Origin: a phage
Reading direction: 5' to 3' (one strand)
Length of the DNA: 64,000 nucleotides
Sequence record: PZ452584.1
Under the pieces are notes generated by a model. It made no database searches and was not told the DNA's origin. It saw only the letters and a program-made list of their open reading frames with translations. The position numbers were made by a program, and so were the translations under genes. This document shows, in pieces, positions 2,488-57,121 of this stretch. The stretch's first letter is position 1, and every line of letters begins with the position of its first letter.

Positions 2488-2736
2488 TTACTTCAATGTT
2501 ACCACAAAGTGACGAACTGCTTTTCGTGCAGCAGAAGCCAGAGGCTTAGCATACTTAAGTTCATCTTTTTCCTGAAGCTCGGCAGCTAATGCAGTTTGAG
2601 CAGGATTCAGATGTTTGAAATAACGCAGGATTTCAAGAGCTTCGGCTTCAACATCAATAGATGCGCCATAGTTTTCGTGACCATTATTCCATGCGTTTCG
2701 TTGCAGTTCAAGAGCGTGTTGTAATTGTTTAATCAT
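2488..2736 (-). CDS. rIII: rIII lysis-inhibition accessory protein
   Basis: 82-aa ORF MIKQLQHALELQR... matches T4 rIII in length and sequence; lies downstream of gene 31. Confidence 0.9.
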   Translation of the reverse strand: MIKQLQHALELQRNAWNNGHENYGASIDVEAEALEILRYFKHLNPAQTALAAELQEKDELKYAKPLASAARKAVRHFVVTLK

Positions 2737-2875
2737 TTAAAAATTCTCGTTAGAGATTAAAACTCGGTAGTCACGTTCTTCTGAATTTCATCTTCTTTCG
2801 ACAGATCTCTCAGTTGTAGACTACCACATAGAATTGTTCGGTTAACTTATTATTCCGACACCCAATTCATATTAT

Positions 2876-2883
2876 TATTTATA
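2876..2883 (-). promoter_or_regulatory. late promoter TATAAATA upstream of rIII
   Basis: tatttata on plus strand abutting gene 31 stop, about 140 nt upstream of rIII. Confidence 0.45.
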
Positions 2884-3219
2884 TCACTTATAAAGACACG
2901 GAATAGCTTTATAGTGACAAGTAACAAATTTTTGTTTAATTTCTTTTGGCTGCTTAAGACCCAGAGCTACAAAAGGATGCGGAACATTTCGAATTTGACC
3001 AACTGGAAGAGAAGTCAAATCACCAACTTCGCAGAAACCTTCAGGAACATCAGGACCAACAGAGTGAACTACACACAGTTCAGGAACTTCACCTTGAACA
3101 CGTTTACCGATAATAAGTCCTGATTCTGTAACTTCTTCATCACCAGCCTGTGCGGGTTCAGAAACTAAAATAACATATTCACCGACAGCACGAATTGGTA
3201 GCTGTTGTACTTCAGACAT
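2884..3219 (-). CDS. 31: gp31 co-chaperonin (GroES-like)
   Basis: 111-aa [24 protein letters not shown]...; same length as T4 gp31; synteny 31-rIII. Confidence 0.9.
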
Positions 3220-15867: not shown

Positions 15868-16110
15868 TCAAAACCCCCTTTCAATAAACCATTCAGTGGC
15901 TTTATTAGCATCAAAGAATAATTCTTCATATGTCTTTTCTTTGTTTTCAAAAACTGTCACACAAACACGTTGACATTCTCCACAGTATTCTTCTGACATA
16001 CTTAAAGCGTCAGAAAACATTTCTTTAAATTCATTTAAATCAGGATTATGCAATGCGTTAAAAATTGCATAATCAAATTCATCATTCATAAATTCAAATA
16101 CAAAAATCAT
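15868..16110 (-). CDS. hypothetical protein (80 aa)
   Basis: Track ORF; Cys-rich (CGECQRVC). Confidence 0.45.
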   Translation of the reverse strand: MIFVFEFMNDEFDYAIFNALHNPDLNEFKEMFSDALSMSEEYCGECQRVCVTVFENKEKTYEELFFDANKATEWFIERGF

Positions 16111-16120
16111 ATTGTTTTCC

Positions 16121-16363
16121 TTAAACAGACTTTTTCACAATTTTCCAATCAGCTTTAAACTGCTCGACGTCAGAGTGATGAATCCAGAAACCAGATGAGC
16201 TACCATCTTCATAAAGAGGACAACCATCGCACTCATCTTTCCAACCCATCGCGCATAAAGTTTCTTCAGCTTTTTCCAGAGCTTCTGGATTGTTACCCTG
16301 GATTGTAAAGTACCATTTGCCTTTAACTTCTGAATCTTTGATGCTCTCACGTTGTAATTTCAT
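16121..16363 (-). CDS. hypothetical protein (80 aa)
   Basis: Track ORF; CDGC motif. Confidence 0.45.
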   Translation of the reverse strand: MKLQRESIKDSEVKGKWYFTIQGNNPEALEKAEETLCAMGWKDECDGCPLYEDGSSSGFWIHHSDVEQFKADWKIVKKSV

Positions 16364-16440
16364 TTTATTCTCCAGTGTTTTAGTTGTTAACTCAGTATGG
16401 GACCATTATGTCATAGCCCCATTTGGTTGTACACTACTTT

Positions 16441-16812
16441 TTACTGAATATTAAAAGTTGCTTTAATCAGTGCAATGACTTCTGCCGCATTTTTATGATT
16501 TACCTGCACATGAATGGTTTGGGTATCAATATCAGGAGCATCGCCATCAACTTCCAGGAAGTGACAGAATTCCCATTCAGCGAGTTCAAAGTACTCGTCA
16601 GCATTATCATAAACAGACTTCAGGATGGTGCCATCTTTCATTTCAACTTTTTCGACAAAATAATCACCGTCGATATAACACATGTCCAGGACTTTAAAGG
16701 AACTGCCATGTTGTTCCATAATCTTAATCATGCGCGAATTGTTATCAGGACTACCAGCGATGAATTGTTTTTTGGCAGCAGGGTCTAATACGTAAAATTT
16801 ACCAATTTCCAT
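16441..16812 (-). CDS. hypothetical protein (123 aa), paralog of 16871-17251
   Basis: Track ORF trimmed to ATG 16812 with GAGGAAAA RBS; early promoter 16842-16871 upstream. Confidence 0.5.
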   Translation of the reverse strand: MEIGKFYVLDPAAKKQFIAGSPDNNSRMIKIMEQHGSSFKVLDMCYIDGDYFVEKVEMKDGTILKSVYDNADEYFELAEWEFCHFLEVDGDAPDIDTQTIHVQVNHKNAAEVIALIKATFNIQ

Positions 16813-17296: not shown

Positions 17297-17527
17297 TTAT
17301 TGTTCAATCAGTCCCATGTAAAATTCTGCGTCTTCAGAATCCATGCCATCACAATATTCATTAGCCATAAAGCGGGTAAGGTCTTCAAGAGGACCTTCAA
17401 TGACAATAGAAAAATTGCAATAATTGGGATCATCATGAATACTTGTGATACTAAGTTCAGGATAACGATTACGAATAATTTCTTCGATATATTCAAAATC
17501 AACGATGTCAATATCAACTTTAGCCAT
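17297..17527 (-). CDS. hypothetical acidic protein (76 aa)
   Basis: Trimmed to ATG 17527 with AAAGAGGAAAA RBS; promoter cassette 17571-17600 upstream. Confidence 0.5.
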
Positions 17528-17570
17528 ATTATTTTCCTCTTTAATCATCAGCAGTATTGCCGATAGTTGT

Positions 17571-17600
17571 ATAGTACCATGGAAGAACAGGGATGTAAAC
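17571..17600 (-). promoter_or_regulatory. T4-type early promoter, member of repeated promoter-leader cassette
   Basis: gtaaac 17595-17600, atagta 17571-17576; upstream A/T tract. Confidence 0.6.
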
Positions 17601-17620
17601 CGTTTTGTGAAAAAATTTTA

Positions 17621-17648
17621 AAATAAAAAAAGGGACCTCTAGGGTCCC
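17621..17648 (-). terminator. intrinsic terminator downstream of gene 32
   Basis: gggacc..ggtccc hairpin 17632-17648 with A-run 17621-17631 on plus strand. Confidence 0.6.
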
Positions 17649-17671
17649 CGATTAATTAGTAATATAATCTA

Positions 17672-18580
17672 TTAAAGGTCATTCAAAAGGTCATCCAGGT
17701 CCGTGTCATCAGCACTAGATGAACTGCCAGAGCTTGAGCTCATAAAATCATCTTCAGTTTTTGTATTGAAGTCATCAACATTGAATGCATCCAAATCATC
17801 AGCAACTTTATCAGCTTTCTTAGCAGCAGTTGCAGCGGCACCGCCCATCACAGCAGTTCCCATAACTTGACCGAATTTAGTATTCAGTTCTTCAAACGAT
17901 TTGAATTTATCTTTAGAAGTCATTTCAGAAAGGTCAACCATTTGTTCGAACAGTTCTTTCTGGAAAGATTCATCGTCAATGTTTGGAATCGCAGATTGAT
18001 TCAGGAATTTAGATTCGTCGTAGTTACTAAATCCGGAAACTTGTTTAACTTTCAGTACAAAGTTAGCACCTTCCCACGGACAAGTTACATCAACCGGAGT
18101 TTCACCCATTTCAACATCAACTGCAATCATTGCGTTGATTTTATCCCAGATTTTCTTACCGAAACGGTATTTAAATACTTTACCTTCATTTTCTGGAGCA
18201 GCTGGGTCTTTTACTACAAGAATGTTAGCCCAGTAAGAAGTTTTACGTTTAACAAGACCGTACTCTTTATTGTCAGTGTTGTACAAATCATTTTTACTGA
18301 TGTACTGACATACTGGGCAAGAATCGTAATCACCATGGGTAGATGAACATGTTTCAATATACCATTTACCATTTTTCTTGAAACCGTGATTTACAAGAAT
18401 TGCGAATGGTGCTTGTTCATCATTTTTAGACGGAAGAAAACGAATTACTGCTTGACCGTTACCCGCATTATCGAGTTTCAGTTTCCACTCGCCTTTATCT
18501 TCAGAAGAAAAACCACCTTTATTTCCAGCCAGTTTAGCCATTTGTGCAGCGAGTTCAGCAGTAGATTTACGTTTAAACAT
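17672..18580 (-). CDS. 32: gp32 single-stranded DNA-binding protein
   Basis: 302-aa [20 protein letters not shown]... with acidic C-terminal tail; matches T4 gp32. Confidence 0.95.
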
Positions 18581-30823: not shown

Positions 30824-31480
30824 ATGGCAGCACCTAGAATATCATTTTCGCCCTCTGATATTCTATTTGGTGTTCTAGATCGCTTGTTCAAAGATAACGC
30901 TACCGGGAAAGTTCTTGCTTCCCGGGTAGCTGTCGTAATTCTTTTATTTATGATGGCGATTGTTTGGTATAGGGGAGATAGTTTCTTTGAGTACTATAAG
31001 CAATCAAAGTATGAAACATACAGTGAAATTATTGAAAAGGAAAGAACTGCACGCTTTGAATCTGTCGCCCTGGAACAACTCCAGATAGTTCATATATCAT
31101 CTGAGGCAGACTTTAGTGCGGTATATTCTTTCCGCCCTAAAAACTTAAACTATTTTGTTGATATTATAGCATACGAAGGAAAATTACCTTCAACAATAAG
31201 CGAAAAATCACTTGGAGGATATCCTGTTGATAAAACTATGGATGAATATACAGTTCATTTAAATGGACGTCATTATTATTCCAACTCAAAATTTGCTTTT
31301 TTACCAACTAAAAAGCCTACTCCCGAAATAAACTACATGTACAGTTGTCCATATTTTAATTTGGATAATATCTATGCTGGAACGATAACCATGTACTGGT
31401 ATAGAAATGATCATATAAGTAATGACCGCCTTGAATCAATATGTGCTCAGGCGGCCAGAATATTAGGAAGGGCTAAATAA
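30824..31480 (+). CDS. t: holin T
   Basis: 218-aa ORF MAAPRISFSPSDILFGVLDRLFKDNATGKVLASRVAVVILLF...; matches T4 holin. Confidence 0.92.
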   Translation: MAAPRISFSPSDILFGVLDRLFKDNATGKVLASRVAVVILLFMMAIVWYRGDSFFEYYKQSKYETYSEIIEKERTARFESVALEQLQIVHISSEADFSAVYSFRPKNLNYFVDIIAYEGKLPSTISEKSLGGYPVDKTMDEYTVHLNGRHYYSNSKFAFLPTKKPTPEINYMYSCPYFNLDNIYAGTITMYWYRNDHISNDRLESICAQAARILGRAK

Positions 31481-54454: not shown

Positions 54455-54700
54455 TTAACCACCAGTTACTTTCCACAAATCTTCGTTTGCAGCAATCCAT
54501 TCAGTACGCTGATTTTCTTCATATACAGTAGTATATGCTGCTTTTTCTGAAGGGAACGTCTGGTAATGAGCACCAGAAATTTTGTGAACGTCAGAATAAA
54601 GAGGGAAAGCTACTGAAATTTCCTTTCCTTCAATTTTCTTATTTCCATCTAATTTCTGCTCAAATGTTTTGATATTAACATAACCGCGAGTACTAGCCAT
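54455..54700 (-). CDS. soc: Soc small outer capsid protein
   Basis: 81-aa ORF MASTRGYVNIKTFEQKLDGNKKIEGKEISVAFPLYSDVHKISGAHYQTF...; late promoter upstream, terminator downstream. Confidence 0.9.
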   Translation of the reverse strand: MASTRGYVNIKTFEQKLDGNKKIEGKEISVAFPLYSDVHKISGAHYQTFPSEKAAYTTVYEENQRTEWIAANEDLWKVTGG

Positions 54701-54738: not shown

Positions 54739-54768
54739 ATAAATTCTCGCGGCTTTTAAGACGAGCTG

Positions 54769-55287
54769 TTAATAACCTCGGTCTTGACGAGCGAAATTTT
54801 CAGCATTTTTCAGATAATAAAGTTTAAAGATTTCTTCAGCTGTAAGACCAAGACCCTGGAACATATTCAGAACGAAATGAAGAATATCAATCATTTCAAA
54901 TTTAATTTCTAACTGGTCTTGCGGAGACAAATCAGTAATCAGAGTTTCACGACGTTCACCATGCTGCGACTTCCAAGGTTTCCATACAGCAGATGCATCT
55001 TTTTCGCCATTGCTCATACCACCAAGAGAAGTCAGAAGTTCGCGGAATTCATCATCAATATAATCTTTCTGATTACGCAGCCAATCAACAACTTCACCTG
55101 CAGTAGCCAAATCATCAGGATGACGGTTATATTCAGGTTTATCTTTAGCTAAACGAATCTGTAGAGATTTCTGCATATCAAGCATTACCTGCAGCGGGTC
55201 TTTTTCATCACCGAGAATATCCCAATATTCATTTTGAGCTTTATCAGCGCCTTCAATCAGTTGTGAACATTCATTAAAGTATGCCAT
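54769..55287 (-). CDS. 56: gp56 dCTPase/dUTPase (MazG-like)
   Basis: 172 aa from ATG 55287 (MAYFNECSQLIEGADKAQNEYWDILGDE...); AAGGA RBS; MotA-type promoter upstream. Confidence 0.85.
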   Translation of the reverse strand: MAYFNECSQLIEGADKAQNEYWDILGDEKDPLQVMLDMQKSLQIRLAKDKPEYNRHPDDLATAGEVVDWLRNQKDYIDDEFRELLTSLGGMSNGEKDASAVWKPWKSQHGERRETLITDLSPQDQLEIKFEMIDILHFVLNMFQGLGLTAEEIFKLYYLKNAENFARQDRGY

Positions 55288-55321
55288 TATTTTTCCTTTC
55301 AATTCATGGGTTAGTAGATTA

Positions 55322-55347
55322 ATTATACAATAAATATATAAAGCAAT
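55322..55347 (-). promoter_or_regulatory. MotA-dependent middle promoter candidate for gene 56
   Basis: ATTGCTTTA box (55339-55347) 11 bp upstream of TATAAT (55322-55327). Confidence 0.45.
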
Positions 55348-55358
55348 AAGGAGGACAT

Positions 55359-55559
55359 ATGGTACAAAAATTAATGGCACTTGTTAATGCCATAAAAGGT
55401 AATAAAAAACGTATAGCTTTTACTATTTCTGCTATGATAGGAATTTTACTCTGGAATTTTGTTTTATCACCAATTGCTATTGCTCATGGTGTTAATATTC
55501 CAGTAATTACTCTTGATACATTCGTAGATTTAGCATTTGCTTTGGTTGGGTTAATTTAA
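55359..55559 (+). CDS. small hydrophobic ORF (66 aa) convergent with gene 61
   Basis: ATG with AAGGAGG 4 nt upstream; two hydrophobic segments; lies in the 56-61 intergenic region opposite to all neighbours. Confidence 0.3.
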   Translation: MVQKLMALVNAIKGNKKRIAFTISAMIGILLWNFVLSPIAIAHGVNIPVITLDTFVDLAFALVGLI

Positions 55560-56584
55560 ATCTTAGCATATTTAGATAGCCGCATTTTAGCCATCAACCC
55601 TTGGGCAATATTATTTTTCATATATTCCATAATTTGTTTAGGGGTTGCACCTTCCTTTCTAATCATATCATTAACATCTTTTGATTTCCAGGGAGATTTA
55701 TCCCAAAACATAACCCTTTCTCCTGCATCAACTAATTTAGTCATTCGCTTAATAGTGTCAGGGTGACGAGGTTCATTATCTAAAACCCACACTCGTCTAT
55801 CTTTAAATGGAACAACTTCTAGGTCTAATTGACCACCCGTAATAGCTATACCATTTTCAATAAAAAGTGAATCTATAGGTCCTTCTAGAACATATACATC
55901 GCCATCTTTAACTCGTTCGACTCCATATATTTTTGTTGCCTCAGGATAAGCTTTAATGGTGATATATTTTTGAGGAGCATCTTTCTTTAATGCGCGTCCT
56001 TGAAAAGACTCAGCCTTTCCGTCAGCATTATAAATTGGAATAACAAGACGAGGCTCAGAAATTTCCTTTTTATATGTTCCCGGTACTATGCTATTAACTA
56101 ATTTAGGCCATTCGGTTGTAAACCAAAGATATTTCCATTTATCCTTTGGAATACAACGAGCTTTTACATATTTTATAATTGGATGGTCTTCCGCCAGTTT
56201 ATCTAATCTAACACATGACGGAAGAGATTTAATTATTTTCTTCTCAGGTTGTTTAGGAAGTTCTTTAGGTTTTTCTACTGGACGACTTTTACCTTTTTCT
56301 TTTCTTATTTCAAAGATATACTCACGATATAAATCAGGTTCAAACTCCTTTAAATATATTCCGATTGGTGCATGATAGTTACAGTTATAACAATGAATAT
56401 TTCCTTCATTATTATCACCATAATACCATCCACGCGCTTTATTTTGGTCGGTTTTTGAATCTCCACATACTGGACATCTAAACCGCAATTTAAAAGTTGA
56501 ACTATTATTTACTTGTGTGAATTTAGGTAAATGAGCTAATGCACGATACGCAAACTCATTATCAATCCAAGGTATTGATGACAT
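55556..56584 (-). CDS. 61: gp61 DNA primase
   Basis: 342-aa ORF with zinc ribbon CPVCGDSKTD...CYNCNYH; same length as T4 gp61. Confidence 0.92.
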   Translation of the reverse strand: MSSIPWIDNEFAYRALAHLPKFTQVNNSSTFKLRFRCPVCGDSKTDQNKARGWYYGDNNEGNIHCYNCNYHAPIGIYLKEFEPDLYREYIFEIRKEKGKSRPVEKPKELPKQPEKKIIKSLPSCVRLDKLAEDHPIIKYVKARCIPKDKWKYLWFTTEWPKLVNSIVPGTYKKEISEPRLVIPIYNADGKAESFQGRALKKDAPQKYITIKAYPEATKIYGVERVKDGDVYVLEGPIDSLFIENGIAITGGQLDLEVVPFKDRRVWVLDNEPRHPDTIKRMTKLVDAGERVMFWDKSPWKSKDVNDMIRKEGATPKQIMEYMKNNIAQGLMAKMRLSKYAKI

Positions 56585-56752: not shown

Positions 56753-57109
56753 TTAACCTCTATTCATAAAAGCATTAAAAATTTGGTCATCAATAGATGG
56801 AATAACAACCTTTTCGGCATCATTTAGCAAATCATTAATTTCATCAGATAGCATAACACATGTACCTTTATTTCCTGTAATTGTTACTGCGCAATTACGA
56901 ACGTTTTCTTTATTAAATTTTAGGTTAATATTTTCGTAATGAAAATCCTTTAATGCTGAATATATTTTTAAAATGAAATTGTCTTTTACTACAATAAACC
57001 CAACCTCACTATTAAAACGCGGTTCATGGAAACTGTAATAAACCTTTTCATCTATAAAATCGTATGAAATTTTTTCCATTTTTAAATATGAAAATTCAGA
57101 ACTATACAT
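56753..57109 (-). CDS. hypothetical protein (118 aa; 61.1-like position)
   Basis: Track ORF. Confidence 0.5.
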   Translation of the reverse strand: MYSSEFSYLKMEKISYDFIDEKVYYSFHEPRFNSEVGFIVVKDNFILKIYSALKDFHYENINLKFNKENVRNCAVTITGNKGTCVMLSDEINDLLNDAEKVVIPSIDDQIFNAFMNRG

Positions 57110-57121
57110 ATTAACCTCTAA

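What the first reader, a model, noticed from the sequence alone, without database searches (positions are those of the whole stretch)
55288..55559. No dam or gene 69 between genes 56 and 61; a convergent 66-aa ORF sits there instead
As I recall the T4 map, dam and gene 69 lie between 56 and 61. Here the interval is only about 270 bp. It holds a MotA-box middle promoter for gene 56 and, on the opposite strand, a 66-aa hydrophobic ORF with a strong AAGGAGG RBS. The phage may lack adenine methylation, and the small ORF would be the only plus-strand gene in the minus-strand array.
Basis: partly seen in the sequence, partly recalled or inferred. Interest (0 to 1): 0.45.

Follow-up and report, generated by a model that had tools for sequence, protein, structure and literature searches.

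The report
T6-type dam-less junction with gene dam.1
This T4-like phage lacks T4's optional adenine-methylase gene at its usual site, as most of its relatives do. The small opposite-strand ORF there is a conserved gene of unknown function, probably a late membrane protein, which T4 also has but whose reference record does not list.

Summary
Gene 56 (54769-55287, -) and primase gene 61 (55556-56584, -) lie 268 bp apart. The gap holds a MotA-box middle promoter for gene 56 and a 66-aa hydrophobic plus-strand ORF (55359-55559) with an AAGGAGG ribosome-binding site.

- T4's dam does lie between 56 and 61 and is missing here. That is the common state. Phage T6, AR1, RB69 and about two thirds of Tequatrovirus records have the same dam-less junction.
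- The closest complete genome, NBEco003, has no Dam homologue anywhere.
- Old "gene 69" is segF. It lies between soc and 56, not between 56 and 61, and it is also absent here.
- The ORF does not replace dam. T4 carries both, and the ORF is unannotated in NC_000866.

The ORF is called dam.1 in T6, RB69ORF029w in RB69, and belongs to PHROG 2024. It is intact in 16 of 16 loci from three genera, with dN/dS of about 0.1-0.3. A diverged paralogue occupies the same site in further genera.

An (A/T/G/C)ATAAATA late-promoter box lies 16-22 nt upstream of the start codon wherever I checked an independently transcribed copy, except one variant in CGG4-1. The motif is strongly depleted in the rest of the window.

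Best model: a late-transcribed small inner-membrane protein of unknown role. The finding is ordinary overall. The missing T4 annotation is a modest curiosity.

The parts
54455..54700 (-). soc (small outer capsid protein, 81 aa). Its late promoter box TATAAATA lies at 54738->54731.
   Evidence: 98.8% identical to T4 Soc. The box lies 30 nt upstream of the ATG.
54739..54768 (.). Empty segF (old gene 69) site. These 30 bp stand where T4 has 659 bp carrying segF.
   Evidence: blastn of T4 against the window: T4 locus 1112-1770 has no counterpart. tblastn of SegF finds no hit.
54769..55287 (-). Gene 56 (dCTPase/dUTPase), 172 aa, of the T2/T6 type.
   Evidence: 74% aa and 76.6% nt identity to T4 gp56, while flanking genes are 97% or more.
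55322..55347 (-). MotA-dependent middle promoter for gene 56. The MotA box ATTGCTTTA runs 55347->55339, then an 11-nt spacer, then the -10 TATAAT at 55327->55322.
   Evidence: Read from the sequence. It aligns with T4 P(M)16.53, whose mot-box and -10 are annotated in X01416.
55329..55336 (+). Putative gp55-type late promoter box AATAAATA for the small ORF. It lies inside the spacer of the gene 56 middle promoter. The predicted start of transcription is near 55342, giving a 17-nt leader.
   Evidence: ATAAATA occurs 13 times in the window against 37.8 +/- 6.6 expected. Six of the 13 lie 18-83 nt upstream of genes 34, 36, t, soc, 32 and this ORF. The box is kept upstream of the ORF in loci from seven genera, with a one-base variant in an eighth (CGG4-1). 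It stays with the ORF when dam or other genes separate it from gene 56. The A(-13) variant is found in 9 of 50 listed T4 late promoters (PMC2988020).
55328..55347 (.). Empty dam site. These 20 bp stand where T4 has 900 bp (dam plus flanks), and where T2-type phages have dam plus a 186-aa ORF.
   Evidence: T4 locus L001 2327-3225 has no counterpart in the window. dam lies at this position in T4, L008 and L009.
55348..55354 (+). Shine-Dalgarno sequence AAGGAGG, 4 nt before the ATG.
   Evidence: Read from the sequence. GGAG(G) is conserved at the same place in 16 of 16 loci.
55359..55559 (+). Small ORF of 66 aa. It is dam.1 in T6, RB69ORF029w in RB69, ar1_033 in AR1, and a member of PHROG 2024. 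It is predicted to be a small inner-membrane protein: helix 2-12, a transmembrane helix at about 16-42, a loop, then helix 52-65.
   Evidence: PHROG 2024, E 8e-31. tblastn hits in 693 phage records. dN/dS 0.12-0.3, and variable columns by codon position are 45/21/56. AlphaFold2 mean pLDDT 78. TMHMM places a transmembrane segment at 21-41 in the RB69 homologue, and SignalP is negative.
55364..55393 (-). Terminator-like hairpin (AUGGCAUUAACAAGUGCCAU followed by UAAUUUUUGU) on the minus strand. It lies downstream of gene 61 and inside the first codons of the small ORF.
   Evidence: It is present in the Tequatrovirus loci only, not in Mosigvirus or Gaprivervirus.
55556..56584 (-). Gene 61 (DNA primase, 342 aa), convergent with the small ORF. 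The two stop codons overlap by 4 bp.
   Evidence: 98.5% identical to T4 gp61.

Best explanation
The window comes from a Tequatrovirus with the compact, T6-type junction soc | 56 | small ORF | 61. Two optional T4 cassettes are absent: segF (between soc and 56) and dam (between 56 and the small ORF). The compact arrangement is shared by Tequatrovirus, Mosigvirus and Gaprivervirus. It is therefore most likely ancestral, with dam an insertion in a minority of Tequatroviruses (inference).

The 66-aa ORF is a real protein-coding gene that T4 also carries. The proposed mechanism has these steps.
1. Early and middle in infection, minus-strand transcripts from the 61 cluster read antisense across the ORF. 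In Tequatroviruses they may stop at a hairpin inside its 5' end. MotA/AsiA-sigma70 RNA polymerase fires the gene 56 promoter.
2. After replication starts, gp55/gp33/gp45-RNA polymerase uses the AATAAATA box, which lies in the spacer of that middle promoter and faces the other way. It makes a transcript with a leader of about 17 nt and a strong Shine-Dalgarno sequence.
3. The product inserts into the inner membrane. The basic KGNKKR segment stays in the cytoplasm, and one transmembrane helix carries the conserved W-N-F...P...A-H-G motif.
4. No canonical terminator was found downstream, so the late transcript probably runs antisense into gene 61.

Shown: gene order, absence of dam and segF, conservation, purifying selection, the sequence motifs, and hydrophobicity.
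Inferred: late timing, membrane insertion and topology, and antisense read-through.
Unknown: the protein's role. My best guess is a late envelope or lysis-related accessory function, held with low confidence.
For: Gene order and missing cassettes:
-.
- The same dam-less junction is found in T6 (273 nt, gapless, 94.5% identical), AR1, RB69, JK42 and NBEco003.
- dam sits between 56 and the ORF only in T4, L008 and L009, 3 of 16 loci.
- Record counts: 501 records have the ORF at 90% identity or more, against 182 with T4-type Dam at 90% or more. By organism name, 513 Escherichia-phage records have the ORF and 215 have any Dam-like hit.
- NBEco003, which is 91-98% identical across the window, has no Dam homologue and no annotated methyltransferase.

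The ORF is a real gene:
- It is intact at 65-66 aa in 16 of 16 loci.
- dN/dS is 0.12-0.3 within and between genera, and the second codon position varies least.
- The Shine-Dalgarno sequence and start codon are conserved.
- A paralogue in 117 further records also lies next to the primase gene.
- No minus-strand ORF overlaps it.

Late promoter:
- Depletion of the motif and the positive controls within the window.
- The holin gene t has the same AATAAATA box followed by AAAGGAGG, with the box 18 nt before its ATG.
- The box travels with the ORF in T4, L008, L009, Marfa and IME523.
- The A(-13) variant is documented for T4 late promoters (PMC2988020). T(-13) is poorly conserved in relatives (PMC1524935).

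Membrane protein.
Against: - There is no experimental 5' end, Ribo-seq or proteomic evidence for this ORF in anything I could read. The T4 dRNA-seq table of transcription start sites in bioRxiv 10.1101/2024.04.04.588121 is not held as text.
- Nolan et al. 2006 did not list a late promoter upstream of RB69ORF029w at their HMM threshold.
- The first base of the box is never the consensus T in type-A loci.
- In dam-less genomes the box overlaps the gene 56 promoter region, so part of its conservation there could serve that promoter.
- T6 has ATT in place of the ATG, so the protein may be dispensable in the laboratory.
- The window covers only about 64 of roughly 167 kb. A methylase of another family elsewhere in this phage is not excluded.
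Confidence: 0.8

Rival explanations
1. The 66-aa ORF is a chance open frame. On this view the region is conserved because it is the 3' untranslated region and terminator of gene 61 and the upstream control region of gene 56.
For: The region is AT-rich and holds many spurious ORFs of similar length. A minus-strand terminator-like hairpin lies inside the ORF. The T4 reference genome does not annotate it.
Against: - The frame is open and 65-66 codons long in 16 of 16 loci, at down to 48% aa identity.
- dN/dS is 0.12-0.3, with variation ordered third > first > second codon position.
- The hairpin is absent in Mosigvirus and Gaprivervirus, which still keep the ORF.
- The strong Shine-Dalgarno sequence and the start codon are conserved.
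- A diverged paralogue keeps the same length, hydropathy pattern and W-N-(F/L)...P motif.
Confidence: 0.04
2. The small protein is a holin or another lysis or lysis-timing factor. UniProt labels one homologue "Holin".
For: It is small and membrane-embedded, with a putative late promoter. Its promoter and Shine-Dalgarno layout is almost the same as that of holin gene t in this window. UniRef gives the name "Holin" to the vB_EcoM_OE5505 homologue.
Against: - The canonical T4-type holin t is present in the window (ATG at 30824).
- The C-terminus (…ALVGLI) is hydrophobic and lacks the charged cytoplasmic tail typical of holins.
- The gene lies between 56 and 61, not in a lysis cassette.
- There is no similarity to any holin family in Pfam, NCBIfam or PDB.
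- The UniProt name is an unreviewed automatic label.
Confidence: 0.12
3. The main function is regulatory. The late promoter drives an antisense RNA into primase gene 61 and blocks the overlapping gene 56 middle promoter. This would switch off early and middle expression late in infection, with the peptide being secondary.
For: The late box lies inside the spacer of the gene 56 middle promoter, in the divergent orientation. No canonical plus-strand terminator was found after the ORF up to 56000. [quoted passage not shown]
Against: The protein sequence is itself under purifying selection. In T4, T2-type phages, Marfa and IME523 the box is separated from the gene 56 promoter, yet the ORF and box are kept together. 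The two roles do not exclude each other.
Confidence: 0.12
4. dam is not lost but relocated. On this view the phage carries a Dam or another adenine methyltransferase outside the 64-kb window.
For: Only about 38% of a roughly 167-kb genome is in the window. More distant T4-like phages carry Dam homologues that one search reports at other record coordinates, for example RB49 and KP15. I did not check what flanks them.
Against: In every dam-positive Tequatrovirus locus examined, dam lies between 56 and the small ORF. NBEco003, the closest complete genome, has no Dam-like sequence (best E 1.6) and no annotated methyltransferase. At least about 300 Escherichia-phage records with the ORF have no Dam-like hit at all.
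Confidence: 0.06

Closest known systems
Phage T6 56 / dam.1 / 61 junction (MH550421.1 16160-16431)
   Same: The gene order is the same, with no dam. The 273-nt interval aligns without gaps at 94.5% identity. It has the same MotA box, the same AATAAATA box and the same AAGGAGG.
   Different: T6 has ATT where the window has the ATG start codon, so its annotators started the gene at Met6 (61 aa). T6 has two extra small genes (T6ORF029 and soc.2) between soc and 56.
Phage T4 56 / dam / (unannotated ORF) / 61 (NC_000866 16270-18963)
   Same: Homologous 56, small ORF (92% aa identity) and 61. The ORF is likewise convergent with 61, with a 4-bp overlap. It has GATAAATA 21 nt upstream of the ATG and an AAAGGAGG ribosome-binding site.
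   Different: T4 has a 900-bp dam cassette between the gene 56 promoter and the ORF's box, and segF between soc and 56. The T4 reference does not annotate the ORF. T4 gene 56 is only 77% identical at the DNA level.
RB69ORF029w (Mosigvirus) and PHROG 2024
   Same: The same family (PHROG E 8e-31), the same position and orientation, a length of 65-66 aa, and one predicted transmembrane segment at 21-41.
   Different: About 50% aa identity. Nolan et al. 2006 listed it as a novel ORF, with no T4 counterpart recognised. In RB69 the late box lies just outside the MotA box rather than inside the promoter spacer.
T4 late genes driven by TATAAATA promoters, for example holin gene t and soc
   Same: An 8-bp box with A or T at -13, a short leader and a strong Shine-Dalgarno sequence. 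Within this window, t has AATAAATA 18 nt before its ATG.
   Different: Transcription of the small ORF has not been mapped. It is the only putative late gene on this strand inside the long early-gene array.
Class II / pinholin-type small phage holins
   Same: A small (about 65-70 aa), hydrophobic, membrane-embedded protein with putative late expression.
   Different: It has no charged C-terminal tail, no sequence or profile similarity, and no place in a lysis cassette. The phage already has the T-type holin.

Membership tests
T4-type Dam (D12-class N6-adenine DNA methyltransferase) | A homologue of T4 Dam (259 aa, with a DPPY catalytic motif) is encoded between genes 56 and 61, or elsewhere. 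| tested here: not met
   tblastn of T4 Dam against the window gives a best E of 2.3. No ORF of 150 aa or more in the window has a (D/N/S)PP(Y/F/W) motif. The closest complete genome, NBEco003, gives a best E of 1.6. The rest of this phage's own genome could not be tested.
SegF (old gene 69) GIY-YIG homing endonuclease | A homologue is encoded between soc and 56. | tested here: not met
   The soc-56 gap is 68 bp. tblastn of SegF gives a best E of 0.51, at another place in the window.
dam.1 / RB69ORF029w / PHROG 2024 small-protein family | A full-length profile match. | tested here: met
   phrog_2024, E 8.2e-31, residues 2-66 on profile positions 1-65 of 65. The exact protein is already in NCBI as a hypothetical protein, for example AKN44584.1.
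dam.1 / RB69ORF029w / PHROG 2024 small-protein family | Conserved position: plus strand, between 56 (or dam) and 61, convergent with 61. | tested here: met
   16 of 16 loci, plus the annotations of AR1, JK42, VR26, RB69, T6 and NBEco003.
T4 late (gp55-dependent) promoter | A TATAAATA box about one helical turn upstream of the start of transcription. A at -13 is the commonest accepted variant. | tested here: met
   AATAAATA at 55329-55336. The A(-13) variant is found at 9 of 50 listed T4 sites (PMC2988020). The box is conserved across genera.
T4 late (gp55-dependent) promoter | An RNA 5' end that appears late and depends on gp55, gp33 and gp45. | not testable with these tools
   A T4 dRNA-seq dataset exists (bioRxiv 10.1101/2024.04.04.588121), but its table of transcription start sites is not held as text.
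MotA-dependent middle promoter (for gene 56) | A MotA box (a/t)(a/t)TGCTT(t/c)A centred near -30, placed 11-13 bp upstream of a sigma70 -10 element, with no -35 element. | tested here: met
   ATTGCTTTA, then 11 nt, then TATAAT on the minus strand at 55347->55322. It is homologous to the mot-box and -10 of T4 P(M)16.53. The consensus is quoted from my own knowledge of the family.
Holin | At least one transmembrane domain. | tested here: met
   Hydropathy and the AlphaFold2 helix 16-42. TMHMM places a segment at 21-41 in the RB69 homologue.
Holin | A highly charged, hydrophilic C-terminal cytoplasmic domain. | tested here: not met
   The C-terminus is ...DLAFALVGLI, with no charged residue after D57. 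The basic cluster is N-terminal.
Holin | The gene lies in a lysis cassette, or is the phage's only candidate hole-former. | tested here: not met
   The gene lies between dCTPase and primase genes. The T-type holin gene t is present, with its ATG at 30824.
Holin | Timed lethal permeabilisation of the membrane. | not testable with these tools
   This needs expression and lysis assays.

The most novel reading that the evidence does not exclude
dam.1 is an overlooked late gene of all T-even-type phages, including T4 itself, where the reference genome omits it. On this reading it encodes a small inner-membrane protein with a real role late in infection, such as tuning lysis or lysis inhibition, protecting the envelope, or supporting membrane-bound assembly. 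Its promoter, interleaved back-to-back with the gene 56 middle promoter, would act as a temporal switch that also sends antisense RNA into the primase gene.
Probability: 0.2. Interest if true: 0.5.

Novelty: already known. Interest (0 to 1): 0.22.

Why it matters
For genome interpretation, the absence of dam here is routine variation in accessory genes among T-even phages and says nothing special about this phage.

The useful by-products are three.
- The T4 reference annotation (NC_000866) lacks a small gene that is conserved and under purifying selection. Related genomes annotate it as a hypothetical protein. This led RB69ORF029w to be counted as "novel".
- In the annotation of the closest complete genome, this gene's homologue is the only opposite-strand gene inside an early array of about 83 kb. 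It carries good late-promoter signals, so it is a cheap and well-defined target for knockout and tagging.
- The dam cassette boundaries are now defined to within 20 bp. They lie between two overlapping divergent promoters.

Tried and rejected
Searches for a function of the small protein, none of which found a relative outside its own family:
- Pfam and NCBIfam.
- PDB by sequence profile, where the best hit was NqrE at E 0.075, taken as noise from hydrophobic sequence.
- Foldseek against PDB, with nothing below E 6.
- Foldseek against viral models, which returned the protein's own family and two 63-aa proteins, one from the T4-like phage CIP9 and one unnamed.
- An HMM search of 1.84 billion representative proteins, which gave 6 hits, all of the same family.
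- A search for paralogues in the window and in NBEco003, with none found.

A cleaved signal peptide was considered because P-x-A-x-A precedes H43. I set it aside because SignalP was negative for RB69ORF029w in Nolan et al.'s supplement and the hydrophobic stretch is long. It is not excluded.

Literature:
- Six of the ten paper searches looked for Ribo-seq, mapped transcription start sites or any mention of the ORF. They found nothing on it, and "dam.1" does not occur in the library.
- The T4 genome review (PMC150520) is not held.
- The T4 dRNA-seq table of transcription start sites is not held as text.
- I could not find a held paper for my recollection that T2 and T4, but not T6, induce a DNA adenine methylase. 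I therefore rely on the T6 genome record itself, and only for this locus.

The minus-strand hairpin was considered as the reason for the region's conservation. I rejected this because the hairpin is specific to Tequatrovirus.

The sigma70-type promoter scan gave no more sites than shuffled sequence.

Full report
WHAT IS THERE

The window is the early region of a Tequatrovirus (T4-like phage). Around the finding the minus strand carries these genes:
- soc at 54455-54700;
- gene 56, the dCTPase, at 54769-55287;
- primase gene 61 at 55556-56584;
- then 61.1, a 118-aa ORF, sp, 61.4, dmd and helicase gene 41.

Genes 56 and 61 are 268 bp apart. On the plus strand a 66-aa ORF runs from 55359 to 55559. 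It is preceded by AAGGAGG at 55348-55354, and its stop overlaps the gene 61 stop by 4 bp.

On the minus strand, ATTGCTTTA (55347->55339), an 11-nt spacer and TATAAT (55327->55322) fit a MotA-dependent middle promoter. They align with the mot-box and -10 element of P(M)16.53, which T4 record X01416 annotates upstream of 56.

THE T4 MAP

In NC_000866 the order is soc, segF, 56, dam, 61.
- dam does lie between 56 and 61.
- "Gene 69" does not. In the original 1984 record it spans what are now 56 and segF, and segF lies between soc and 56.
- Both cassettes are missing here. T4 positions L001 1112-1770 (segF) correspond to 30 bp in the window. T4 positions L001 2327-3225 (dam plus flanks) correspond to 20 bp, window 55328-55347.
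- tblastn of T4 Dam and SegF finds nothing in the 64 kb.

HOW UNUSUAL IS A DAM-LESS JUNCTION?

It is not unusual.
- Classical phage T6 has the same interval, 273 nt, gapless and 94.5% identical.
- AR1, NBEco003, the Mosigviruses JK42 and RB69 and the Gapriverviruses also have it.
- Among 16 loci examined, dam sits between 56 and the small ORF in only three: T4, L008 and L009.
- In the phage collection the small ORF is found at 90% identity or more in about 501 records, and T4-type Dam at 90% or more in about 182. By organism name, 513 Escherichia-phage records have the ORF and only 215 have any Dam-like hit.
- I fetched all of NBEco003, the complete genome closest to the window (91-98% identical over all aligned blocks). 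It has no Dam-like sequence (best E 1.6) and no annotated methyltransferase.

Three genera share the compact junction. The simplest reading is that it is ancestral and that dam is an insertion in a minority of Tequatroviruses. This is an inference.

"This phage lacks its own adenine methylase" is therefore likely. It is unproven for the roughly 100 kb outside the window, and it would be an ordinary state.

THE SMALL ORF IS NOT A REPLACEMENT FOR DAM

T4 has the ORF as well, at NC_000866 17738-17938, 92% identical in protein. It lies between dam and 61 and is simply not annotated. The exact T4 protein occurs in the 15-billion-protein collection only from raw-read assemblies, without an NCBI accession. 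The window's exact protein is in NCBI as a hypothetical protein.

Elsewhere it is annotated under several names:
- ar1_033 in AR1;
- RB69ORF029w in RB69;
- "dam.1" in T6;
- a member of PHROG 2024, of unknown function.

IS IT A REAL GENE?

A 66-codon frame is not remarkable in this AT-rich DNA. The comparative evidence, however, is strong.
- The frame is open and 65-66 codons long in 16 of 16 loci from Tequatrovirus, Mosigvirus and Gaprivervirus, at down to 48% amino-acid identity.
- Pairwise dN/dS is 0.12-0.3, both within Tequatrovirus and between genera. Variable columns by codon position number 45, 21 and 56.
- The Shine-Dalgarno sequence and the first ATG are conserved.
- No minus-strand ORF overlaps it.
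- A diverged paralogue (E 2e-5 to the window protein) lies in tandem with it in VR26. The paralogue alone occupies the same place next to the primase gene in 117 further records, from Dhaka-, Kanagawa-, Gelderland- and Marfavirus.

The family is narrow. A profile search of 1.84 billion representative proteins returns six proteins, all of this family.

WHEN IS IT EXPRESSED?

All evidence here comes from sequence.
- The core of the T4 late promoter, ATAAATA, is strongly avoided in the window. It occurs 13 times on both strands, against 37.8 +/- 6.6 in shuffles, and every shuffle had more.
- Six of the 13 lie 18-83 nt upstream of genes 34, 36, t, soc, 32 and this ORF.
- The ORF's box is AATAAATA (55329-55336), 22 nt before the ATG. 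Holin gene t in the same window has AATAAATA 18 nt before its ATG, with a similar AAAGGAGG site.
- A at -13 is the commonest variant among the 50 listed T4 late promoters (PMC2988020). T(-13) is poorly conserved in relatives (PMC1524935).
- The box is kept upstream of the ORF in the independently transcribed copies I checked, apart from one variant:
  - GATAAATA in T4 and the T2-type phages;
  - AATAAATA in Mosigvirus and JS10;
  - CATAAATA in Gaprivervirus;
  - perfect TATAAATA in Marfa and IME523;
  - a variant, ATTAAATA, in CGG4-1.
- The box stays with the ORF when dam, dam plus another gene, or a MazG-like gene separates it from gene 56. It therefore belongs to the ORF rather than to the gene 56 promoter.

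In the window the box lies inside the 11-nt spacer of the gene 56 middle promoter and points the other way. The two promoters physically overlap. No canonical plus-strand terminator follows the ORF, so a late transcript would run antisense into gene 61.

Conversely, minus-strand transcripts leaving gene 61 cross the ORF. In Tequatroviruses only, they meet a terminator-like hairpin at 55393-55374.

No experimental 5' end or translation data for this ORF could be found. Nolan et al. did not predict a late promoter there in RB69.

WHAT IS THE PROTEIN?

- GRAVY is 1.25.
- The layout is a short amphipathic N-terminal helix, a conserved basic cluster (A-I-K-G-N-K-K-R), a hydrophobic helix at about 16-42 carrying the invariant W32-N33, P38 and G44 and the nearly invariant F34, a loop, and a short C-terminal helix with D53 and D57.
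- The AlphaFold2 model has a mean pLDDT of 78.
- Published TMHMM and SignalP runs on the RB69 homologue give one transmembrane segment at 21-41 and no signal peptide.
- The positive-inside rule places the N-terminus in the cytoplasm. This is an inference.
- Pfam, NCBIfam, PDB sequence and fold searches, and a viral fold library show no relative outside the family.
- The UniProt label "Holin" on one homologue is not supported. The C-terminus is hydrophobic rather than charged, the gene is not in a lysis cassette, and the T-type holin gene is present.

VERDICT

The finding is real at the stated coordinates, but it describes the common T6-type arrangement.
- dam and segF are optional cassettes, absent from most relatives.
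- The small ORF is a conserved gene, already annotated elsewhere, that coexists with dam in T4.
- The best mechanistic model is a gp55-dependent late transcript that encodes a small inner-membrane protein of unknown role.

My confidence that it is a genuine coding gene is high. It is moderate that the gene is late and the product membrane-inserted. It is low for any specific function.

Novelty is nil for the arrangement. The omission from the T4 reference annotation, and the gene's status as the only opposite-strand gene in the early array of its closest complete relative, make it a reasonable small target for experiment.

Noticed in passing
L009 2341-2901 (-), an IMG/VR T4-like contig of 167,948 bp (IMGVR_UViG_2974787500_000001); the ORF is also found in phage T2 MH751506.1 at 16007-16543: In most dam-positive Tequatroviruses, including T2 but not T4, a 186-aa ORF lies immediately upstream of dam, and the two coding regions abut with a one-base overlap. 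It is found in 164 phage records. It has a weak, sub-threshold Pfam match to the DpnII (GATC) restriction endonuclease (E 0.0045, 16.8 bits against a cut-off of 23) and a PD-(D/E)XK-like FDIVIS...EIK motif. This may be a phage-borne GATC restriction-modification pair. There was no PDB sequence hit.
   Followed up: partly
window 56753-57109 (-) and the junction at 57120/57121: The 118-aa ORF between 61.1 and sp matches the C-terminal half of Pfam AdfA, the anti-DarT factor A that corresponds to T4 61.2 (E 2.4e-8). The full-length 61.2 gene present in NBEco003 (148104-148736), AR1 and T6 is deleted in this window.
   Followed up: partly
L022 (phage T6 MH550421.1) locus position 2232: T6 has ATT instead of ATG at the conserved start of dam.1, so its annotators began the gene at Met6 (61 aa, with no Shine-Dalgarno sequence). 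The gene may be poorly translated, or on its way to being lost, in this laboratory strain.
   Followed up: no
whole window, both strands: The late-promoter core ATAAATA is about three-fold depleted: 13 sites against 37.8 +/- 6.6 in dinucleotide-preserving shuffles. About half of the sites lie just upstream of genes known or expected to be late (34, 36, t, soc, 32).
   Followed up: partly
L005 (VR26) 2495-2692 and 2701-2901 (+): Gapriverviruses carry two tandem copies of the small gene, one of each diverged type, 8 nt apart. The second has its own Shine-Dalgarno sequence but no promoter box. TH40 seems to have lost or disrupted the second copy.
   Followed up: partly
window 54769-55287 (-): Gene 56 is only about 77% identical in DNA to T4's, while the flanking soc and 61 are 97% or more. 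It groups with the AR1 and T6 allele. This is the region that T4 SegF targets in marker exclusion of T2, a point I state from memory and did not test here.
   Followed up: no
window about 17518-17694 (-): T4 SegF gives a weak GIY-YIG-like tblastn match here (E 0.51). This is probably another seg-type homing endonuclease gene. NBEco003 annotates one between genes 59 and 32 at the corresponding place.
   Followed up: no
window 55364-55393 (-): A terminator-like hairpin for the gene 61 transcript lies inside codons 6-12 of the small ORF. The same DNA therefore encodes a peptide on one strand and an RNA hairpin on the other. This is seen only in Tequatrovirus loci.
   Followed up: partly
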